Shown here: positions 249 to 12,576 of the stretch, piece by piece | Layout of the letters: the number at the start of each line of letters is the position of its first letter | How positions within the stretch are numbered: position 1 is the first letter of the stretch | Virus record (IMG/VR): IMGVR_UViG_2690316345_000017 | Source of the DNA: a virus | Taxonomy: Duplodnaviria; Heunggongvirae; Uroviricota; Caudoviricetes | Length of the DNA stretch: 12,825 nucleotides | Strand: one strand, 5' to 3' | The notes under the pieces: model-generated | What the model was told of the DNA's origin: nothing | The model's input: the letters and a program-made list of their open reading frames with translations, nothing else | Databases searched by the model: none | Position numbers and translations under genes: made by a program

Positions 249-7325
<7,077 letters not shown>

Positions 7326-7514
7326 GCTTACCTTCCCTGAACGAGCTAACATAAATGCGCCCTTTCTAGCACAGCGAAAAAATGTAAATACTGATAGCAA
7401 TATGATTGAAAATTAATAACTTTTCGTTAGGCAGTTTTGGGTGTGAGTTGCAAGAGGGGAGACTACTGAATAACTCAAGTTTTATAATCGAGGGGAAAAT
7501 GGTGATGGCGTTCA

Positions 7515-7638: not shown

Positions 7639-7714
7639 TGGCTCCTCTGACTGGACTCGAACCAGTGACATACGGATTAACAGTCCGCCGTTCTACCGAC
7701 TGAACTACAGAGGA
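7639..7714 (-). tRNA. asnT: tRNA-Asn (anticodon GUU)
   Basis: Reverse complement of 7639..7714 is TCCTCTGTAGTTCAGTCGGTAGAACGGCGGACTGTTAATCCGTATGTCACTGGTTCGAGTCCAGTCAGAGGAGCCA, 76 nt with encoded CCA, which I recognise as canonical E. coli tRNA-Asn. Anticodon loop CUGUUAA. The symbol asnT is assigned from its position between mtfA and yeeJ. Confidence 0.96.
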
Positions 7715-7814: not shown

Positions 7815-8612
7815 TTAATGAACATTCGTCGCCGAAAACGAGTCTGTATCATTAGCGTGATGCAGTCTCTGCAAAGGATCTTGTTGATAAAATTGGCAGA
7901 AACGTTGCCACAATGAAGGGAAACGAGGAGCAAAAAGTTCTGGGGCGCTAAAGAAATATTCAGAAAGTACGGCAAAACATTCAGCAGGATCGCTGGCTGC
8001 ATAAGCATCAATGCTCGCCGCATTCTCGCCAACCAATTCGATTTCTTCCTGAATGTTGTTCATTGCAGCATGAAGATCGTGTTCCCAGCCAGCAACCTCA
8101 CGCAACGGAATAAAGGGAACTCCGCTGGCGCGATCGCCGTTACGGGTGTCCAGCTTATGAGCGACTTCATGAATAATCAGGTTAAAACCAGAAGCATCAA
8201 AAGAATCTTGTATATCCAACCAGTTCAAAACGATAGGCCCTTGCTGCCAGCTCTGACCTGACTGAACAATACGTTGGTTATGCACCAGACCGATATCGTC
8301 TTCCCATTCATCATCGACCACAAATGGCGCAGGATAAATTAAGACTTCATGAAAACCATCCAGCCATTCCAGTCCTAACTCCAGAACGGGTAGGCAAAAT
8401 AGAAGTGCTATCCGGCAGCTTCTTAATGAATCCAGTTCAAAGCCCTGTAAAGGAACAAGCCGCTTTTGCTGTAAAAAACGTTCGGCAAGAGTGACTAATT
8501 TGCTTTGTTCCTGTTCCGTCAGACACGTTAAAAGGGGGATCGATAGTGCTTCCTGCCAGGGAAGGGCAGTTTGATGTGCTGATTCTTGTACTTTCCAGGG
8601 CCACTTAATCAT
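7815..8612 (-). CDS. mtfA: Mlc titration factor A; HEXXH zinc-dependent peptidase-like protein
   Basis: The track ORF starts at a GTG (8651). The ATG at 8610-8612 gives 265 aa beginning [28 protein letters not shown], matching my recollection of E. coli MtfA. It contains the HEVAH metallopeptidase motif. Confidence 0.92.
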
Positions 8613-8661
8613 CGTTTTGCTCGCAAACTCGTCACTTGAACAAAATTGCACGGACAGGGAC

Positions 8662-8705: not shown

Positions 8706-8795
8706 GGAGAGATGCCGGAGCGGCTGAACGGACCGGTCTCGAAAACCGGAGTGGGGGCAACTCCACCGGGGGTTCAAATCCCCCTCTCTCCGCCA
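8706..8795 (+). tRNA. serU: tRNA-Ser (anticodon CGA), class II tRNA with long variable arm
   Basis: GGAGAGATGCCGGAGCGGCTGAACGGACCGGTCTCGAAAACCGGAGTGGGGGCAACTCCACCGGGGGTTCAAATCCCCCTCTCTCCGCCA, 90 nt. The 7-bp acceptor stem pairs perfectly, discriminator G, encoded CCA. Anticodon loop CUCGAAA gives anticodon CGA. Divergent from mtfA, as I recall for serU in E. coli. Confidence 0.96.
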
Positions 8796-8840: not shown

Positions 8841-8877
8841 CTTGGAATTACTTGGAATATTTTCTTGGAATATTTTC
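8841..8877 (+). repeat. Tandem direct repeats (CTTGGAAT x3; 13-bp unit CTTGGAATATTTT x2) at the int 3' end; candidate integrase arm-type (P') sites
   Basis: CTTGGAATTA (8841-8850), then CTTGGAATATTTT (8851-8863) and CTTGGAATATTTT (8864-8876). They sit 46-82 bp from the tRNA 3' end and overlap the last int codons (NIPRKYSK) and stop. This is where P' arm sites are expected in an attL. Confidence 0.45.
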
Positions 8878-9873
8878 AGGTAACGGGACATCAAGTGTTG
8901 GTGAAACTTTAACCTTCCTGTCATAGATTAGCACTTGCCCTTCGGTTTTGTGACCAGAGAAAAGTTGCTTATCCCGGCTGCTTCCTTCATAGTCTGAAAT
9001 TCCTTTCGCCTTCAGATCATGAAAGGTGAAGTCGGTTAAAATACCTGAAATTTTTCCAGCACGATTTCTTGCATCTACCCACATTTCGTTAAAGCCTTTG
9101 TACATATATCGGTTGCCGTATTGATTGCTGATCACATAGGCAGATTTTGGTAACTGTTTTGCTTTTTCGATCGCTGCCTGTAATCGTGGACTCCATGCTT
9201 TTATCTGTTTTTTTCCGGTTTTCCCTTGCTGGATGAATATCCCGTCGTTTCCAATCTGTTCCCATTTCAGCGATAACACATCGGAAACCCTCGCTGCACA
9301 CAGATAGGCAATTTCCATTGCGATAAAAACAGGAAGAGGTGCAACGCTTAATACTGCCTGGTATTCTTTGTCGGTTACATATCGTTCGCGGTTTTTGGCC
9401 TTGAATTTACTTACACCTGCACATGGGTTAGCCTTCACGTACCCTCGCTCATACCCCCAACTGTAAACACGGGACATACTGCTTTTTTCATGGTTGGCTT
9501 GCGTTTTACTCTGCTCCCCTCTTTTGTCCATGTATCGACGGATGTGTTCTGGTTTTATGGAATCCGCTGGTACCTTACCGAATACGGCAAGCAACTTTTT
9601 TTGATGTTGCAGATAATCTTTTTGTGTTCTTGGACTAAGGTCACTGTAATAGGCGCTGGCGAGGAATTTTTCCCACAAGCGACCGAATGTCATTGCACGA
9701 TCGCGATTATTTACAGTTTCCTCATACTTTTTCCATAAAGCAGCTAAACCATCCTTGATGGCGGTTAGTGTGACAGATTCTCTGGATGTTGGTTTCCATA
9801 CATAACTATATTTATTTGGGTATACATTTGGAGGTAATTTTTCGTGTTCAGGATTTTTCCTTCGTCTTCCCAT
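8848..9873 (-). CDS. int: Phage integrase, tyrosine recombinase of the lambda Int family
   Basis: 341 aa. N-terminus MGRRRKNPEHEKLPPNVY resembles lambda Int (MGRRRSHERRDLPPNLY). Box I AARVSDVLSLKW, QQGKTGKK (lambda K235 region), HDLKAKGISDY (lambda HELRSLSARLY), and GHKTEGQVLIY with the catalytic Tyr. Adjacent to the tRNA 3' end. Confidence 0.95.
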   Translation of the reverse strand: MGRRRKNPEHEKLPPNVYPNKYSYVWKPTSRESVTLTAIKDGLAALWKKYEETVNNRDRAMTFGRLWEKFLASAYYSDLSPRTQKDYLQHQKKLLAVFGKVPADSIKPEHIRRYMDKRGEQSKTQANHEKSSMSRVYSWGYERGYVKANPCAGVSKFKAKNRERYVTDKEYQAVLSVAPLPVFIAMEIAYLCAARVSDVLSLKWEQIGNDGIFIQQGKTGKKQIKAWSPRLQAAIEKAKQLPKSAYVISNQYGNRYMYKGFNEMWVDARNRAGKISGILTDFTFHDLKAKGISDYEGSSRDKQLFSGHKTEGQVLIYDRKVKVSPTLDVPLPENIPRKYSK

Positions 9874-10076
9874 CAGATCGCACCAAAATTCGGCTCTACC
9901 TCGCGTGGTGGTAAAGTTTTATTGCAGGTAAATAGATCCCGGCTGACAATCGGTTTGCCACTACGATTGGTATAGAACGGAAGCCCGTTTTCCATTAACC
10001 ATTTTCGCTGGTGGCTTGCATATTTGCAGCCCGTTAATATTAGCAATTCATCTTCGGTTAAAAATAAGCTGCTCAT
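9873..10076 (-). CDS. xis: Small DUF4224-like protein, putative excisionase / recombination directionality factor
   Basis: 67 aa (MSSLFLTEDELLILTGCKYASHQRKWLMENGLPFYTNRSGKPIVSRDLF...), matching the DUF4224 pattern as I recall it. Its stop overlaps the int start (TGATG at 9871-9875), suggesting translational coupling. Position immediately upstream of int is typical for xis. Confidence 0.65.
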   Translation of the reverse strand: MSSLFLTEDELLILTGCKYASHQRKWLMENGLPFYTNRSGKPIVSRDLFTCNKTLPPREVEPNFGAI

Positions 10077-10134: not shown

Positions 10135-12576
10135 TTAAAAATCAGCCTGACTCGGGATCAGTTTTTGCCAGATAGCTGAAACGTATTTTGCCTGGTAACG
10201 AGCGTCATCAAGTGCATTATGGCGCTCACCTTCGAATGGAATAGCCGTTCTGGCATCGAAGTCTATGGCTTTCCCCAGCTCAACGATTGTGCGTACATCG
10301 CGATCGTTGTAGTAACGCCACGGGCAGGGGATCCCCTGCCGTTCGTATGAACGGCGCAAAATCGTGTTGTCGAAGTTGGCTCCATTTCCCCAGACCTGAA
10401 CAAAAAATTCACCGGAGTTTTCGTCGATAAATTCCCGCAATTGTAACAGTGCATCATCTAACGGGATTTCATCGGTCATAATGGCAGATTGCGCTTCGCG
10501 TGATTGCTTAAGCCACCATTTAATGGTGTCCCGATCAATGACTCCGCCAGCAGTTTCCAGATCGATAGTCTTACTAAATTCCGGTCCCATATCTCCGGTT
10601 TGCGGATCGAAAAATATTGCACCTATTGAGATGATCGGGGCATCAGGATTTTTTCCCATGGTTTCAAGGTCGATCATTAGATGGTCACACGTCCTGCTGG
10701 TGGATGTGATTTCGTGATGACCGTTCACCTTAATTGAGCGATCTGCCGTCTCGCCAGTTTTATTATCGCTGGCGTGATGCTGATTGCCGCCAGGGTTCTC
10801 CTTGTGTGGATGTTCAGCGTCTTCCATTTCCTCCGGATCATTTTCCTGAACTTCAACCTGATTCTCTTCATCGAATGTTTCCTGGTATGTTGCGTCGCCC
10901 ATCACCGCGCCACAATCAGGGCAGTTGCCGCCACCGCTCTGACCGCAGGCGGTGCAGACTTTTTCCGGTTCCTGTTGCGCTACTGGTTCGGATTGTTTCG
11001 TTTCTGGCTCGTTTTGTAACGCATTTGGGCTGTTTTGTTCCGCTTTTTGGTCGTTCCGTTCCGATTCATGCTGGTTCTGGTTCACAGAATCGCGAGTCTG
11101 GATCCCCTTGACCCATTTCGGATCATTAGGGTCGCTAATCCCCTCAACAAATTCACCACGCGATACAGCAAGTAACTTATCGGCGTCAGGCTGGCTGATA
11201 TTGGCTGCCTGCATAATTTTGTTTACTTCGTCAGCGGTGACTTTTACTTGGTTAGCGGAACTCACCTGCGACTGAGCATCCAGCGACTGCGCGTTCTGGC
11301 CATGTTCAGTTGTATCCGGTTCCATTGTTTCAGTTGTTGCCTGTTCACCTGCCATTGCGTCAGATGGTTGTGGTTTTTCTTCTTCTGTTTCACGCTCAGT
11401 AACCACCTCGCGGTTAATTTCTTCCAGGATATCTTTTTCCGGCGTATGCCGGGCAGCTGTGAGAGTTTCCTTGCTGGGGTTCTCGTGATCAGTTTCCGTC
11501 AAATAGGCGTTGATATACCCCTGAAGGCGTCCCGGGTAGTGATAAAATTCAGGGTGTGCGCTTCGGATAAGTGCAAAAATAGCGGCGCGGGAATAGTCCA
11601 GAATACCCGGGGTTGCACGAAGTGCTGCGGACCATTCTTTGAACGGACTTTCTTTGTTCAGGACTACTTCTTTTGCGCGACGATAAATGCTGCCCGGAAT
11701 TTCATAAATATTAAAATCCATCGGAAGTGTGGCTGCTGCAATCTCCACATCCAGTGTGTCGAGGGTGTGTACTAAATTCGGATTGCGATCGGTTTTGTTC
11801 CCACCGCCAGCATTAGCACCGGAAGCCGTGCGGGTGATGCGTGAAACACGATTTCCTTTCATCCACTCTTTTGTCAGCAGACCCCGATCAGTGTAGTCAG
11901 CGTCCAGGTATGCTTCGAAAAAAGCAGTTATTAGGCCCAGGTCTGAATTACCAGGATTAGGGAAAACTTTGTCAGTGTCACGAACCAGTTTGTGGAGGTC
12001 GCGAATCTCCAGCGAGTCGAGCAGACTGGTTTTATGCGAAATAGCCAGGGCAGTAACAGCCGGTAGTTCTTCAGCCCGTGCAATGTGTAATGCCTGGAGT
12101 TCGTCGCGTGAAACGTGCGTTACTGGTTTTTCGCTGCCGTGTTGAGCAAGCCAACGAATGGGCAGTTCCTGACCGGAGACAGGCAGAAGCATGCTCTCCT
12201 CAATCTCAGTCATGTCTTCGCCGTTGATGTTGGTATTGTCAGTGCTGGCTGGTTTGTCCTGAACAGAGGGGGAAGGGCCGATAAATGTCATTGTGATGCC
12301 ATCTTTCCCGCCTTTTTCATAGCGGTTGCAGAATTCAGTATCAAACACGCCTTCTGGCGGAAGGTCGTCAACAACGGGCAAATTGACGCGGACGGGTTTT
12401 TTAAAGTCGTCTTCATCATAATCGTTGTCATCCATTGCGGTAATGCAGCGGGAGATTGCAACAGATAATTTTTTTGCTGTAGTCCAGTAAAAACCACCTT
12501 TAATTCCCAGGCGTTTTCTTACTTTGTCATTTTTTGCTTCGCAATATAGTGCAAATTCTTCTTTATCAGTGCTCAT
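10135..12576 (-). CDS. Prophage RecE-like ('exodeoxyribonuclease VIII'-type) protein: RecE N-terminal-like region, acidic linker with CxxC-x7-CxxC zinc ribbon, C-terminal DEDDh (DnaQ-like) 3'-5' exonuclease domain
   Basis: 813 aa, ATG start with GAGG about 10 nt upstream. Residues ~115-400 ([41 protein letters not shown]...) resemble what I recall of the Rac RecE N-terminal region. Residues ~400-625 are acidic/Q-rich low complexity containing [16 protein letters not shown]. The C-terminus carries DEDDh motifs: LMIDLETMG (Exo I), [13 protein letters not shown] (Exo II), HNALDDARY (Exo III). Confidence 0.85.

What the first reader, a model, noticed from the sequence alone, without database searches (positions are those of the whole stretch)
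8920..9020. Lambda-family integrase with lysine where the conserved box II arginine is expected
By hand alignment to lambda Int, the C-terminal catalytic region matches residue for residue (box I Arg in AARVSDV, K in QQGKTGKK, H285 to lambda H308, H308 to lambda H333, Y317 to lambda Y342). The lambda HELR motif reads HDLK here, placing K288 at the position of the catalytic Arg311 with no arginine within two residues. The Arg-His-Arg triad is close to invariant in tyrosine recombinases. An intact integrase with a natural Lys here would be mechanistically interesting, or the element could be excision- or integration-impaired.
Basis: partly seen in the sequence, partly recalled or inferred. Interest (0 to 1): 0.45.

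Follow-up and report, generated by a model that had tools for sequence, protein, structure and literature searches.

The report
Prophage integrase with native catalytic lysine
The lysine is real, but it is the normal, conserved state of a large family of working phage integrases that insert into tRNA genes, so this is an ordinary functional prophage integrase and not a broken or newly discovered enzyme.

Summary
The 341-aa ORF at 8848-9873 (- strand) is a three-domain, lambda-like tyrosine integrase.

The "impaired element" reading is not supported:
- Lys is invariant in the 120 closest cluster representatives, down to 55% identity, and in 80 of 119 representatives of 50%-identity clusters.
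- The K/R state follows phylogeny, needing only 2 changes on a tree.
- The codon varies synonymously: 47 AAA and 33 AAG in 80 genomes.
- Nearest R-type relatives read HDLRAK where this family reads HDLKAK.
- Temperate phages ST64B, ZF40 and mEp390 carry the same Lys.
- The O157 Sakai Sp14 integrase is 97% identical and sits at the same serU site. Its excised circles have been detected experimentally.

The window's serU is a hybrid attL. It has a phage-derived 3' part, three arm-type repeats and an adjacent excisionase-like gene, so the element arrived by site-specific recombination.

Natural Lys at Arg II is already on record at 0.5% of tyrosine recombinases. Cre R292K is active, and one natural Lys-type integrase has been shown to integrate.

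Verdict: a known prophage integrase of an under-described Lys-type clade. Interest is low to moderate.

The parts
8848..9873 (-). Integrase gene (341 aa). It has three domains: arm-binding (about residues 1-60), core-binding (about 62-145) and catalytic (about 165-320).
   Evidence: ORF listing and translation. Pfam PF00589, PF22022 and PF14659. phmmer to lambda Int. AlphaFold2 model with pLDDT 95.7. Top Foldseek hits are full-length lambda Int, 1z1b_A TM 0.70.
9010..9012 (-). Codon 288, AAG = Lys, at the Arg II (lambda R311, Cre R292) position.
9289..9291 (-). Codon 195, Arg I (lambda R212). D198 (9280-9282) corresponds to lambda D215.
   Evidence: Alignment. R195 is invariant in A1.
9220..9222 (-). 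Codon 218, the catalytic Lys of the beta2-beta3 hairpin (lambda K235).
9019..9021 (-). Codon 285, His II (lambda H308).
8950..8952 (-). Codon 308, His III (lambda H333).
8923..8925 (-). Codon 317, the tyrosine nucleophile (lambda Y342), in the family motif YDRK.
8706..8795 (+). tRNA-Ser(CGA) serU, a hybrid attL. The 5' part is host DNA and the 3' part is phage-derived. A compensatory pair differs from K-12 at 8753 and 8764.
   Evidence: ARAGORN. Alignment with K-12 attB, the E. coli 042 distal end and ST64B attP.
8734..8795 (+). att identity segment of 62 bp, running from the anticodon stem to the tRNA 3' end. It is repeated at the far end of the prophage in E. coli 042 and Sakai.
8841..8872 (+). 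Three direct repeats CTTGGAAT(A/T) between the core and the int stop codon, overlapping that stop. They are candidate P' arm-type Int binding sites.
   Evidence: In 24.5 kb of E. coli 042 the only two exact copies lie within 115 bp of the distal core. One copy lies near the Sakai distal core. ST64B has TTTTCTCA x3 in the same place.
9873..10076 (-). 67-aa DUF4224 protein, a candidate excisionase (recombination directionality factor). Its stop overlaps the int start.
   Evidence: Pfam PF13986. PHROG 1266 'excisionase', E=3e-21. 36% identical to ST64B Sb29 excisionase.
10135..12576 (-). 813-aa early-region exonuclease, listed as prophage context. A RecE-like N-terminal part is fused to an Rv2179c-like 3'-5' exonuclease domain.

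Best explanation
This is the working integrase of a lambdoid prophage inserted in the tRNA-Ser(CGA) gene serU of E. coli. It is of the same type as prophage Sp14/CP-933U of O157:H7 and belongs to the family of Salmonella phage ST64B Int. It is a heterobivalent, lambda-like tyrosine recombinase. The N-terminal domain is inferred to bind arm repeats (CTTGGAATA). The core-binding and catalytic domains act on a core lying in the anticodon stem-loop of serU. The phage attP carries a copy of the tRNA 3' part, so integration rebuilds an intact tRNA. The adjacent DUF4224 protein is the likely excision factor. Lys288 is the native occupant of the Arg II position in this whole clade. It is inferred to donate a positive charge and a hydrogen bond to a non-bridging oxygen of the scissile phosphate, as Arg II does. 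It probably activates the tyrosine leaving group less well, within an active site that has co-evolved around it (Cys instead of Thr three residues before Arg I, Asp/Asn after the Tyr). Shown here: the alignment, the clade-wide conservation, the recombinant att sites, and the presence of the same Lys in real temperate phages. Taken from papers: excision of Sp14 and ST64B, and activity of R-to-K mutants and of one natural Lys-type integrase. Inferred: the chemical role of Lys288, and that this particular copy is active.
For: K288 aligns with lambda R311 and with the R of HDLRAK in the nearest R-type relatives. Lys is present in 121/121 close sequences and in 80 of 119 representatives of 50%-identity clusters, against R in 37, which are mostly below 40% identity. 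An NJ tree built without that column explains the K/R states with 2 changes, and one all-K clade holds 71 of the 80 K sequences. The codon splits 47 AAA and 33 AAG in 80 genomes. Of 60 related loci, 37 have a tRNA gene (Ser-CGA, Ser-TGA or Leu-TAA) convergent and 50-160 nt downstream of int. ST64B, ZF40 (isolated from an induced lysogen) and mEp390 all read FHDLKAKG. Sakai Sp14 Int is 97% identical including the Lys and sits at serU, and circular Sp14 attP forms were detected after mitomycin C (PMC2669165). ST64B excision was quantified by attP qPCR (PMC12455584). The window's serU is a hybrid. The K-12-type 3' part plus the K-12 flank sits at the distal prophage end in 042 and Sakai, and ST64B attP carries a matching tRNA fragment. 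The int-serU junction is present in 1092 of 5426 complete E. coli genomes, attached to different phage backbones. Cre R292K is active in vivo and in vitro, and 0.5% of tyrosine recombinases have Lys at this position (PMC2943603). The natural Lys-type Pal_Y-Int_1 integrated in 18.7% of plasmid-receiving cells (PMC12884075). The structure model has pLDDT 95.7 and its best match is full-length lambda Int.
Against: There is no biochemical or genetic test of this exact protein. Sp14 excision in Sakai was weak, was seen only after mitomycin C, and depended on replication spilling over from the neighbouring Sp15 (PMC2669165). The Sakai protein also lacks one residue in the arm-binding domain. Cre R292K accumulates covalent intermediate, which indicates a ligation defect (PMC2943603), so Lys may carry a catalytic cost. 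The second Lys-type integrase tested in PMC12884075 (Pal_Y-Int_2) failed. NCBI's PGAP annotation pipeline flags the identical gene in E. coli 042 as 'frameshifted', although the C-terminal ...KYSK is shared with relatives. The window holds only about 4 kb of the prophage, so its completeness is unknown. The 80 genome loci were retrieved with an HD[LI]KAK pattern, so only their codon usage and tRNA context are independent evidence, not the presence of Lys.
Confidence: 0.85

Rival explanations
1. The Lys is a disabling substitution in a decaying prophage. The integrase binds DNA but no longer recombines, which locks the element into serU.
For: Arg II is 99.1% conserved in tyrosine recombinases, and R-to-K lowers activity in Cre, vaccinia topoisomerase and XerCD (PMC2943603). 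Sp14 in Sakai excises poorly (PMC2669165). PGAP calls the identical gene in E. coli 042 a pseudogene.
Against: Lys is invariant across the clade, with synonymous codon turnover and phylogenetic coherence. It is present in phages that lysogenise and are induced. The hybrid serU and the displaced host 3' fragment show that integration took place. Excised circles of Sp14 and ST64B have been detected (PMC2669165, PMC12455584). The ORF is full length with a conserved C-terminus.
Confidence: 0.04
2. The guanidinium function of Arg II has moved elsewhere. Another arginine, for example the clade-invariant R319 two residues after the Tyr, or R230, reaches the scissile phosphate, and Lys288 plays only a minor role. 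This would parallel CTnDOT IntDOT, where a downstream Arg replaces the missing Arg I.
For: R319 and R162 are invariant in 50 Lys-type sequences. R230 is R in 66 of 80 Lys-type but only 8 of 37 Arg-type sequences. Precedent comes from IntDOT as summarised in PMC8138268.
Against: R319 is not among the positions that best separate Lys-type from Arg-type sequences, because Arg-type relatives often have K or R there. Lys288 itself is invariant, which a bystander residue would not need to be. Modelling in Cre indicates that Lys at this position can reach the phosphate oxygen (PMC2943603).
Confidence: 0.1
3. The lysine is an artefact, either a sequencing error at codon 288 (AAG for AGG) or a misalignment that hides a nearby arginine.
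For: None was found. AAG and AGG differ by a single base.
Against: The identical sequence occurs in over a thousand independent assemblies. Both Lys codons are used across the family. Three independent alignments agree. There is no Arg in residues 285-294.
Confidence: 0.01

Closest known systems
Bacteriophage lambda integrase (PDB 1z1b, 1z1g, 5j0n)
   Same: Both have the three-domain architecture from residue 1. The full-length predicted fold matches at TM 0.70. [quoted passage not shown] An excisionase gene lies upstream and overlaps int. Three arm-type repeats lie between int and the core.
   Different: Sequence identity is only about 20%. Arg II (R311) is Lys here. Thr209 of the TGQR box is Cys192 here. 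The target is a tRNA gene rather than the gal-bio attB. The arm-binding domain is below the Pfam PF09003 threshold. The RDF is a DUF4224 protein and not lambda Xis.
Integrase of E. coli O157:H7 Sakai prophage Sp14 (ECs_2773; CP-933U in EDL933)
   Same: It is 97% identical, has the same Lys, the same serU site, the same DUF4224 and exonuclease neighbours, and the same 61-62 bp att repeat. Excision to a circle has been shown by PCR and qPCR (PMC2669165).
   Different: There are ten substitutions and a one-residue deletion in the N-terminal domain. Sp14 is a defective prophage carrying espJ and tccP. The prophage behind the window's int is not visible beyond about 4 kb.
Salmonella phage ST64B integrase (Sb28)
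   Same: It is 59% identical, has the same FHDLKAKGISDY...YDRK motifs, its attP contains a serU 3' fragment, and three short repeats lie between int and the core. Excision has been measured (PMC12455584).
   Different: The arm repeat sequence (TTTTCTCA) and the C-terminal tail differ. The excisionase is only 36% identical.
Cre R292K, vaccinia topoisomerase R223K and XerCD Arg II-to-Lys mutants
   Same: The same Arg II-to-Lys change occurs at the structurally equivalent position. These mutants retain activity (PMC2943603).
   Different: Those are engineered single changes in Arg-adapted active sites and show ligation defects. Here the Lys is ancestral to a clade and is accompanied by co-varying residues.
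Pal_Y-Int_1 (Integrase-On-Demand study, PMC12884075)
   Same: It is a natural tyrosine integrase with Lys at the second Arg, and it was shown to integrate site-specifically.
   Different: It is a Pseudomonas element classed as Y-BPP1Arm. Its relatedness to this clade was not tested here.
CTnDOT IntDOT
   Same: It is a natural tyrosine recombinase lacking one of the two catalytic arginines in its canonical place (PMC8138268).
   Different: IntDOT lacks Arg I and uses a relocated Arg. Here Arg II is replaced in place by Lys, and no relocated Arg is indicated.

Membership tests
Tyrosine recombinase / Phage_integrase (PF00589) | Profile match above the curated threshold | tested here: met
   44.7 bits against a cut-off of 27.1, residues 183-317.
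Tyrosine recombinase / Phage_integrase (PF00589) | Tyrosine nucleophile | tested here: met
   Y317 is in register with lambda Y342 and is invariant in the family.
Tyrosine recombinase / Phage_integrase (PF00589) | Arg I, with the acidic residue three positions later | tested here: met
   R195 and D198 correspond to lambda R212 and D215. R195 is invariant.
Tyrosine recombinase / Phage_integrase (PF00589) | Catalytic Lys on the beta2-beta3 hairpin | tested here: met
   K218 corresponds to lambda K235 and is invariant. It sits between model strands E211-215 and E222-226.
Tyrosine recombinase / Phage_integrase (PF00589) | His II and His III | tested here: met
   H285 and H308 correspond to lambda H308 and H333.
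Tyrosine recombinase / Phage_integrase (PF00589) | Arg II (box II HxxR) | tested here: not met
   Lys288 occupies the position. The literature records 0.5% Lys at this site among more than 12,000 family members (PMC2943603). It is therefore a recognised minority state and not grounds for exclusion.
Lambda-like heterobivalent (arm-binding) integrases | N-terminal arm-DNA-binding domain | tested here: inconclusive
   Pfam PF09003 scores 15.7 bits, below the cut-off of 22, and covers only residues 1-20. However, phmmer aligns from residue 1 of lambda Int. The model shows three strands plus a helix at residues 17-59. Foldseek aligns 348 columns to full-length 1z1b_A.
Lambda-like heterobivalent (arm-binding) integrases | Arm-type repeats flanking the core on both sides of attP | tested here: met
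   Three copies of CTTGGAAT(A/T) lie next to int. Two exact copies lie within 115 bp of the distal core in E. coli 042, the only exact copies in 24.5 kb. Binding has not been tested.
Lambda-like heterobivalent (arm-binding) integrases | Adjacent recombination directionality factor | tested here: met
   The DUF4224 ORF overlaps the int start and matches PHROG 1266 'excisionase' at E=3e-21. Its function has not been tested. PMC2669165 judged the Sp14 counterpart to lack a DNA-binding motif.
tRNA-integrating prophage (attL junction) | Direct repeat of the tRNA 3' part at both prophage ends, and an empty site in other strains | tested here: met
   A 61-62 bp repeat is present in 042 and Sakai. K-12 has an unoccupied serU between yodB and mtfA. 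The four-way alignment shows the hybrid junctions.
Sp14 / CP-933U / ST64B-type serU integrases | High identity to the named members and the same attachment site | tested here: met
   97% identity to Sakai ECs_2773, 59% to ST64B Sb28, and serU in all three.
Sp14 / CP-933U / ST64B-type serU integrases | Recombination activity of this copy | not testable with these tools
   Requires excision PCR or an integration assay.

The most novel reading that the evidence does not exclude
The HDxKAK...YDRK integrases form a distinct catalytic sub-class of tyrosine recombinases. The Lys at Arg II, together with co-evolved Cys192 (in place of the box I Thr) and Asp318 (next to the Tyr), would re-tune the cleavage/ligation balance, for example by giving longer-lived covalent or Holliday intermediates or a different dependence on the DUF4224 directionality factor. 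Under this reading the Lys is not simply a tolerated equivalent of Arg.
Probability: 0.15. Interest if true: 0.55.

Novelty: already known. Interest (0 to 1): 0.28.

Why it matters
The result removes a false lead. The Lys does not mark a dead prophage, so serU prophages of this type, which in O157 carry effector genes such as espJ and tccP, should be treated as potentially mobile.

It also shows that the rare natural Lys state at Arg II (0.5% of tyrosine recombinases) is not scattered noise. At least part of it is concentrated in one large, phylogenetically coherent clade of gammaproteobacterial phage integrases that target Ser and Leu tRNA genes. That clade would be a convenient natural system for asking what Arg II contributes to tyrosine leaving-group activation. 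Its members can be recognised by a simple motif, HD[LI]KAK.

Tried and rejected
- The two '100% identical phage' records (vB_EcoS-689R5 and vB_EcoM-606R7) were first taken as evidence of virion production. I rejected this because the 689R5 record, the only one of the two opened, is a partial genome that includes host mtfA, tRNA-Asn and yeeJ-side DNA. It is therefore a predicted prophage and not packaged DNA.
- I looked for a relocated compensating Arg by comparing Lys-type and Arg-type sequences. The best discriminators are C192, K302, G297 and D318, not an arginine. R319 and R162 are invariant in the Lys type but not specific to it, so they are not convincing candidates.
- Nunes-Duby et al. 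1998 could not be read because it is not held in the library.
- Literature searches for an explicit description of this Lys-type clade found none. Smyshlyaev et al. 2021 do not mention Lys at this position.
- Searches on 'serU' mostly matched 'serum'.
- NCBIfam gave only sub-threshold Xer matches, so no specific curated family name exists for this protein.
- The PGAP 'frameshifted' flag in E. coli 042 was considered as evidence of decay. I rejected it because the C-terminus ...KYSK recurs in relatives at 60-70% identity and Sakai annotates the gene as intact.

Full report
**What is in the window**

The window is a stretch of E. coli chromosome. In order it holds:
- a 2383-aa yeeJ-type adhesin ORF (249-7400, - strand)
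- tRNA-Asn asnT (7639-7714, -)
- mtfA (7815-8651, -)
- tRNA-Ser(CGA) serU (8706-8795, +)
- the left end of a prophage on the - strand: a 341-aa integrase (8848-9873), a 67-aa DUF4224 protein whose stop overlaps the int start (9873-10076), and an 813-aa exonuclease (10135-12576)

The same gene order without the prophage is seen in K-12, where serU lies between yodB and mtfA.

**Checking the observation**

The integrase passes the Pfam Phage_integrase threshold. phmmer against the sequences of solved structures aligns it to lambda Int from residue 1 (E=1.2e-12). It places FTFHDLKAKG on PTFHELRSLS, so H285 equals lambda H308 and K288 equals lambda R311.

In the same alignment R195, D198, K218 and H308 fall on lambda R212, D215, K235 and H333. 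Y317 has the same 9-residue spacing from His III as lambda Y342. Codon 288 is AAG at 9010-9012.

The register is independently fixed by more distant relatives that do have Arg. Burkholderia phage KS5 reads FHDLRAKALTD and Xylella phage Xfas53 reads FRDLRAKAATD.

**Is the lysine a lesion or a family trait?**

It is a family trait. Several lines of evidence agree:
- All 120 closest 90%-cluster representatives, down to 55% identity, have Lys in the strongly conserved motif FHD[LI]KAK[GAS]ISD[YF]...YDRK.
- An exhaustive HMMER search of 1.84 billion cluster representatives found 267 relatives at E<=1e-30.
- Of the 119 full-length sequences among the best 150, 80 have Lys and 37 have Arg. The Arg forms are mostly the more distant ones, at or below 40% identity.
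- A neighbour-joining tree built without that column explains the K/R distribution with two changes. It contains one all-Lys clade of 71 sequences.
- In 80 species genomes the codon is AAA 47 times and AAG 33 times. These loci were retrieved with an HD[LI]KAK pattern, so the presence of Lys is circular there. The synonymous turnover is not circular, and it indicates selection for Lys.
- The positions that best separate Lys-type from Arg-type sequences are Cys192 (Thr in the Arg type, the T of the canonical TGxR box I), Lys302, Gly297 and Asp/Asn318 right after the Tyr. No arginine specific to the Lys type emerged, so a relocated guanidinium is not indicated.

**Evidence that Lys-type integrases work**

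- The temperate phages ST64B (Salmonella), ZF40 (Pectobacterium, isolated from an induced lysogen) and mEp390 (E. coli) all carry the Lys motif.
- Of 60 related genomic loci scanned, 37 have a tRNA gene convergent and 50-160 nt downstream of int, exactly as in the window. The tRNA is Ser-CGA, Ser-TGA, or Leu-TAA of the glyW-cysT-leuZ cluster.
- The window's own junction is a textbook attL. Window 8734-8795 (anticodon stem to tRNA 3' end) is repeated at the far end of the prophage in E. coli 042 and in O157 Sakai.
- A four-way alignment shows that the distal copy carries the K-12-type sequence (GTAGGG...CTCTAC) followed by the K-12 downstream flank. The intact tRNA in the window carries a variant 3' part (GTGGGG...CTCCAC, a compensatory pair at 8753/8764) followed by phage DNA resembling the ST64B attP arm. 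The crossover therefore lies in the anticodon stem-loop, and the phage supplied the new tRNA 3' end.
- Three repeats CTTGGAAT(A/T) lie at 8841-8872 between the core and int, overlapping the int stop. In 24.5 kb of E. coli 042 the only two exact copies sit within 115 bp of the distal core. ST64B has three TTTTCTCA repeats in the equivalent place. This is the arrangement expected for arm-type sites.
- The int-serU junction occurs in 1092 of 5426 complete E. coli genomes. It is joined to clearly different phage backbones in 042 and Sakai, which argues for an exchangeable, functioning module.

Experimental anchors from papers:
- The Sakai prophage at serU is Sp14. Its integrase ECs_2773 is 97% identical to the window's, including the Lys.
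- Asadulghani et al. 2009 (PMC2669165) judged the Sp14 integrase intact. They detected excised circular Sp14 by attP PCR and qPCR after mitomycin C, although weakly and in dependence on replication from the neighbouring Sp15.
- ST64B excision has been quantified by attP qPCR (PMC12455584).
- Gibb et al. 2010 (PMC2943603) report Arg II as 99.1% R and 0.5% K among more than 12,000 tyrosine recombinases. They also report that Cre R292K is active in vivo and in vitro but accumulates covalent intermediate, which points to slower ligation.
- The Integrase-On-Demand study (PMC12884075) tested two natural integrases with Lys at the second Arg. One integrated in 18.7% of plasmid-receiving cells and the other failed.
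- The large classification by Smyshlyaev et al. 2021 (PMC8138268) does not mention the Lys state.

**Fold**

An AlphaFold2 model built on 50 Lys-type sequences has mean pLDDT 95.7. It shows an N-terminal three-strand-plus-helix unit, and K288 sits in a helix spanning residues 285-294. Foldseek against the PDB ranks full-length lambda Int first (1z1b_A, E=4e-16, TM 0.70, 348 columns). Lambda Int chains fill the top ten ranks, ahead of XerA, Tn1549 Int, the integron integrase and Cre. By sequence alone the arm-binding domain stays below the Pfam PF09003 threshold.

**Most likely mechanism**

The element integrates as follows:
1. Int binds arm repeats through its N-terminal domain, and binds the core in the serU anticodon stem-loop through its core-binding and catalytic domains.
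2. Y317 attacks the scissile phosphate.
3. R195, K218, H285 and H308 play their canonical roles.
4. The ammonium group of K288 takes the place of the Arg II guanidinium on a non-bridging oxygen.

The DUF4224 protein is the probable directionality factor (PHROG 'excisionase'; 36% identical to ST64B Sb29). The alignment, conservation and att anatomy are shown by this analysis. The chemical role of K288, and the activity of this particular copy, are inferred.

**Comparison and novelty**

The protein is a member of the tyrosine recombinase family with one canonical feature (Arg II) replaced by a recognised minority state. By architecture it is a lambda-like heterobivalent integrase. By identity it belongs to the Sp14/CP-933U/ST64B serU group.

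The identical protein is in public databases and stands for more than a thousand member sequences. Its close homologue has been studied, and natural Lys at this site has been tabulated. The finding is therefore already known in kind.

What appears under-described is that the Lys state defines a large coherent clade with co-varying active-site neighbours. That is worth a note but is not a discovery about this locus.

**Limits**

No experiment addresses this exact allele. Only about 4 kb of the prophage is visible in the window. PGAP flags the identical gene in strain 042 as frameshifted, which I regard as an annotation artefact because the ...KYSK C-terminus recurs in relatives.

Noticed in passing
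window 8753 and 8764 (within serU 8706-8795): Relative to K-12, the intact tRNA-Ser(CGA) carries a compensatory base-pair change (G...C instead of A...T) in the variable arm. The change was brought in with the phage-derived 3' part of the gene. Lysogens therefore express a slightly different serU tRNA.
   Followed up: partly
window 8841-8872: Three direct repeats CTTGGAAT(A/T) overlap the last codons and stop of int and encode its ...PRKYSK tail. Matching copies lie near the distal att site in E. coli 042 (L009:15014 and 15078) and in Sakai (L010:8311). They are probably arm-type Int binding sites.
   Followed up: partly
window 10135-12576 (- strand): The 813-aa protein usually annotated as 'exodeoxyribonuclease VIII' matches RecE only over its N-terminal ~600 residues, below the NCBIfam cut-off. 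It ends in an Rv2179c-like DEDD 3'-5' exonuclease domain (residues 632-803) in place of the RecE nuclease domain. In ST64B that domain is a separate small protein, Sb30.
   Followed up: partly
L008 (E. coli 042, NC_017626) about 10982-27984: In strain 042 the large terminase gene of the serU prophage is split by a ~15-kb insert. The insert has its own integrase, a DUF927 primase-like gene, and a second set of capsid, portal, protease, HNH and terminase genes. It looks like a capsid-forming phage satellite sitting inside a prophage.
   Followed up: no
L008:47309-48359 (E. coli 042): PGAP annotates the integrase, which is identical in sequence to the window, as a frameshifted pseudogene of 1051 nt. 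The Sakai annotation and the conserved ...KYSK C-terminus in relatives indicate an intact 341-aa gene. This is a likely annotation artefact that would propagate to many genomes.
   Followed up: partly
L001 (ON470583.1, 'Escherichia phage vB_EcoS-689R5'): This GenBank 'phage' record contains host genes (mtfA, tRNA-Asn, tRNA-Ser and part of a yeeJ-side ORF annotated as 'integrase'). It is a prophage prediction with chromosomal flanks, not a virion genome.
   Followed up: yes
L027 (Martelella alba contig NZ_SZPQ01000070.1): A contig assigned to an alphaproteobacterium carries the enterobacterial int-serU-asnT arrangement. This is probably contamination of the assembly.
   Followed up: no
window 249-7400 (- strand): The yeeJ-type inverse autotransporter adhesin is an uninterrupted 2383-aa ORF here, whereas the Sakai counterpart (ECs_2775) is annotated as a pseudogene.
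   Followed up: no
L030-L070 (many loci): A sub-clade of the Lys-type integrases (about 50% identical to the query) sits next to tRNA-Leu(TAA) at the end of the glyW-cysT-leuZ cluster in many Enterobacterales, Aeromonas, Idiomarina and others. Another sub-clade uses tRNA-Ser(TGA). Target choice tracks integrase sub-clade.
   Followed up: partly
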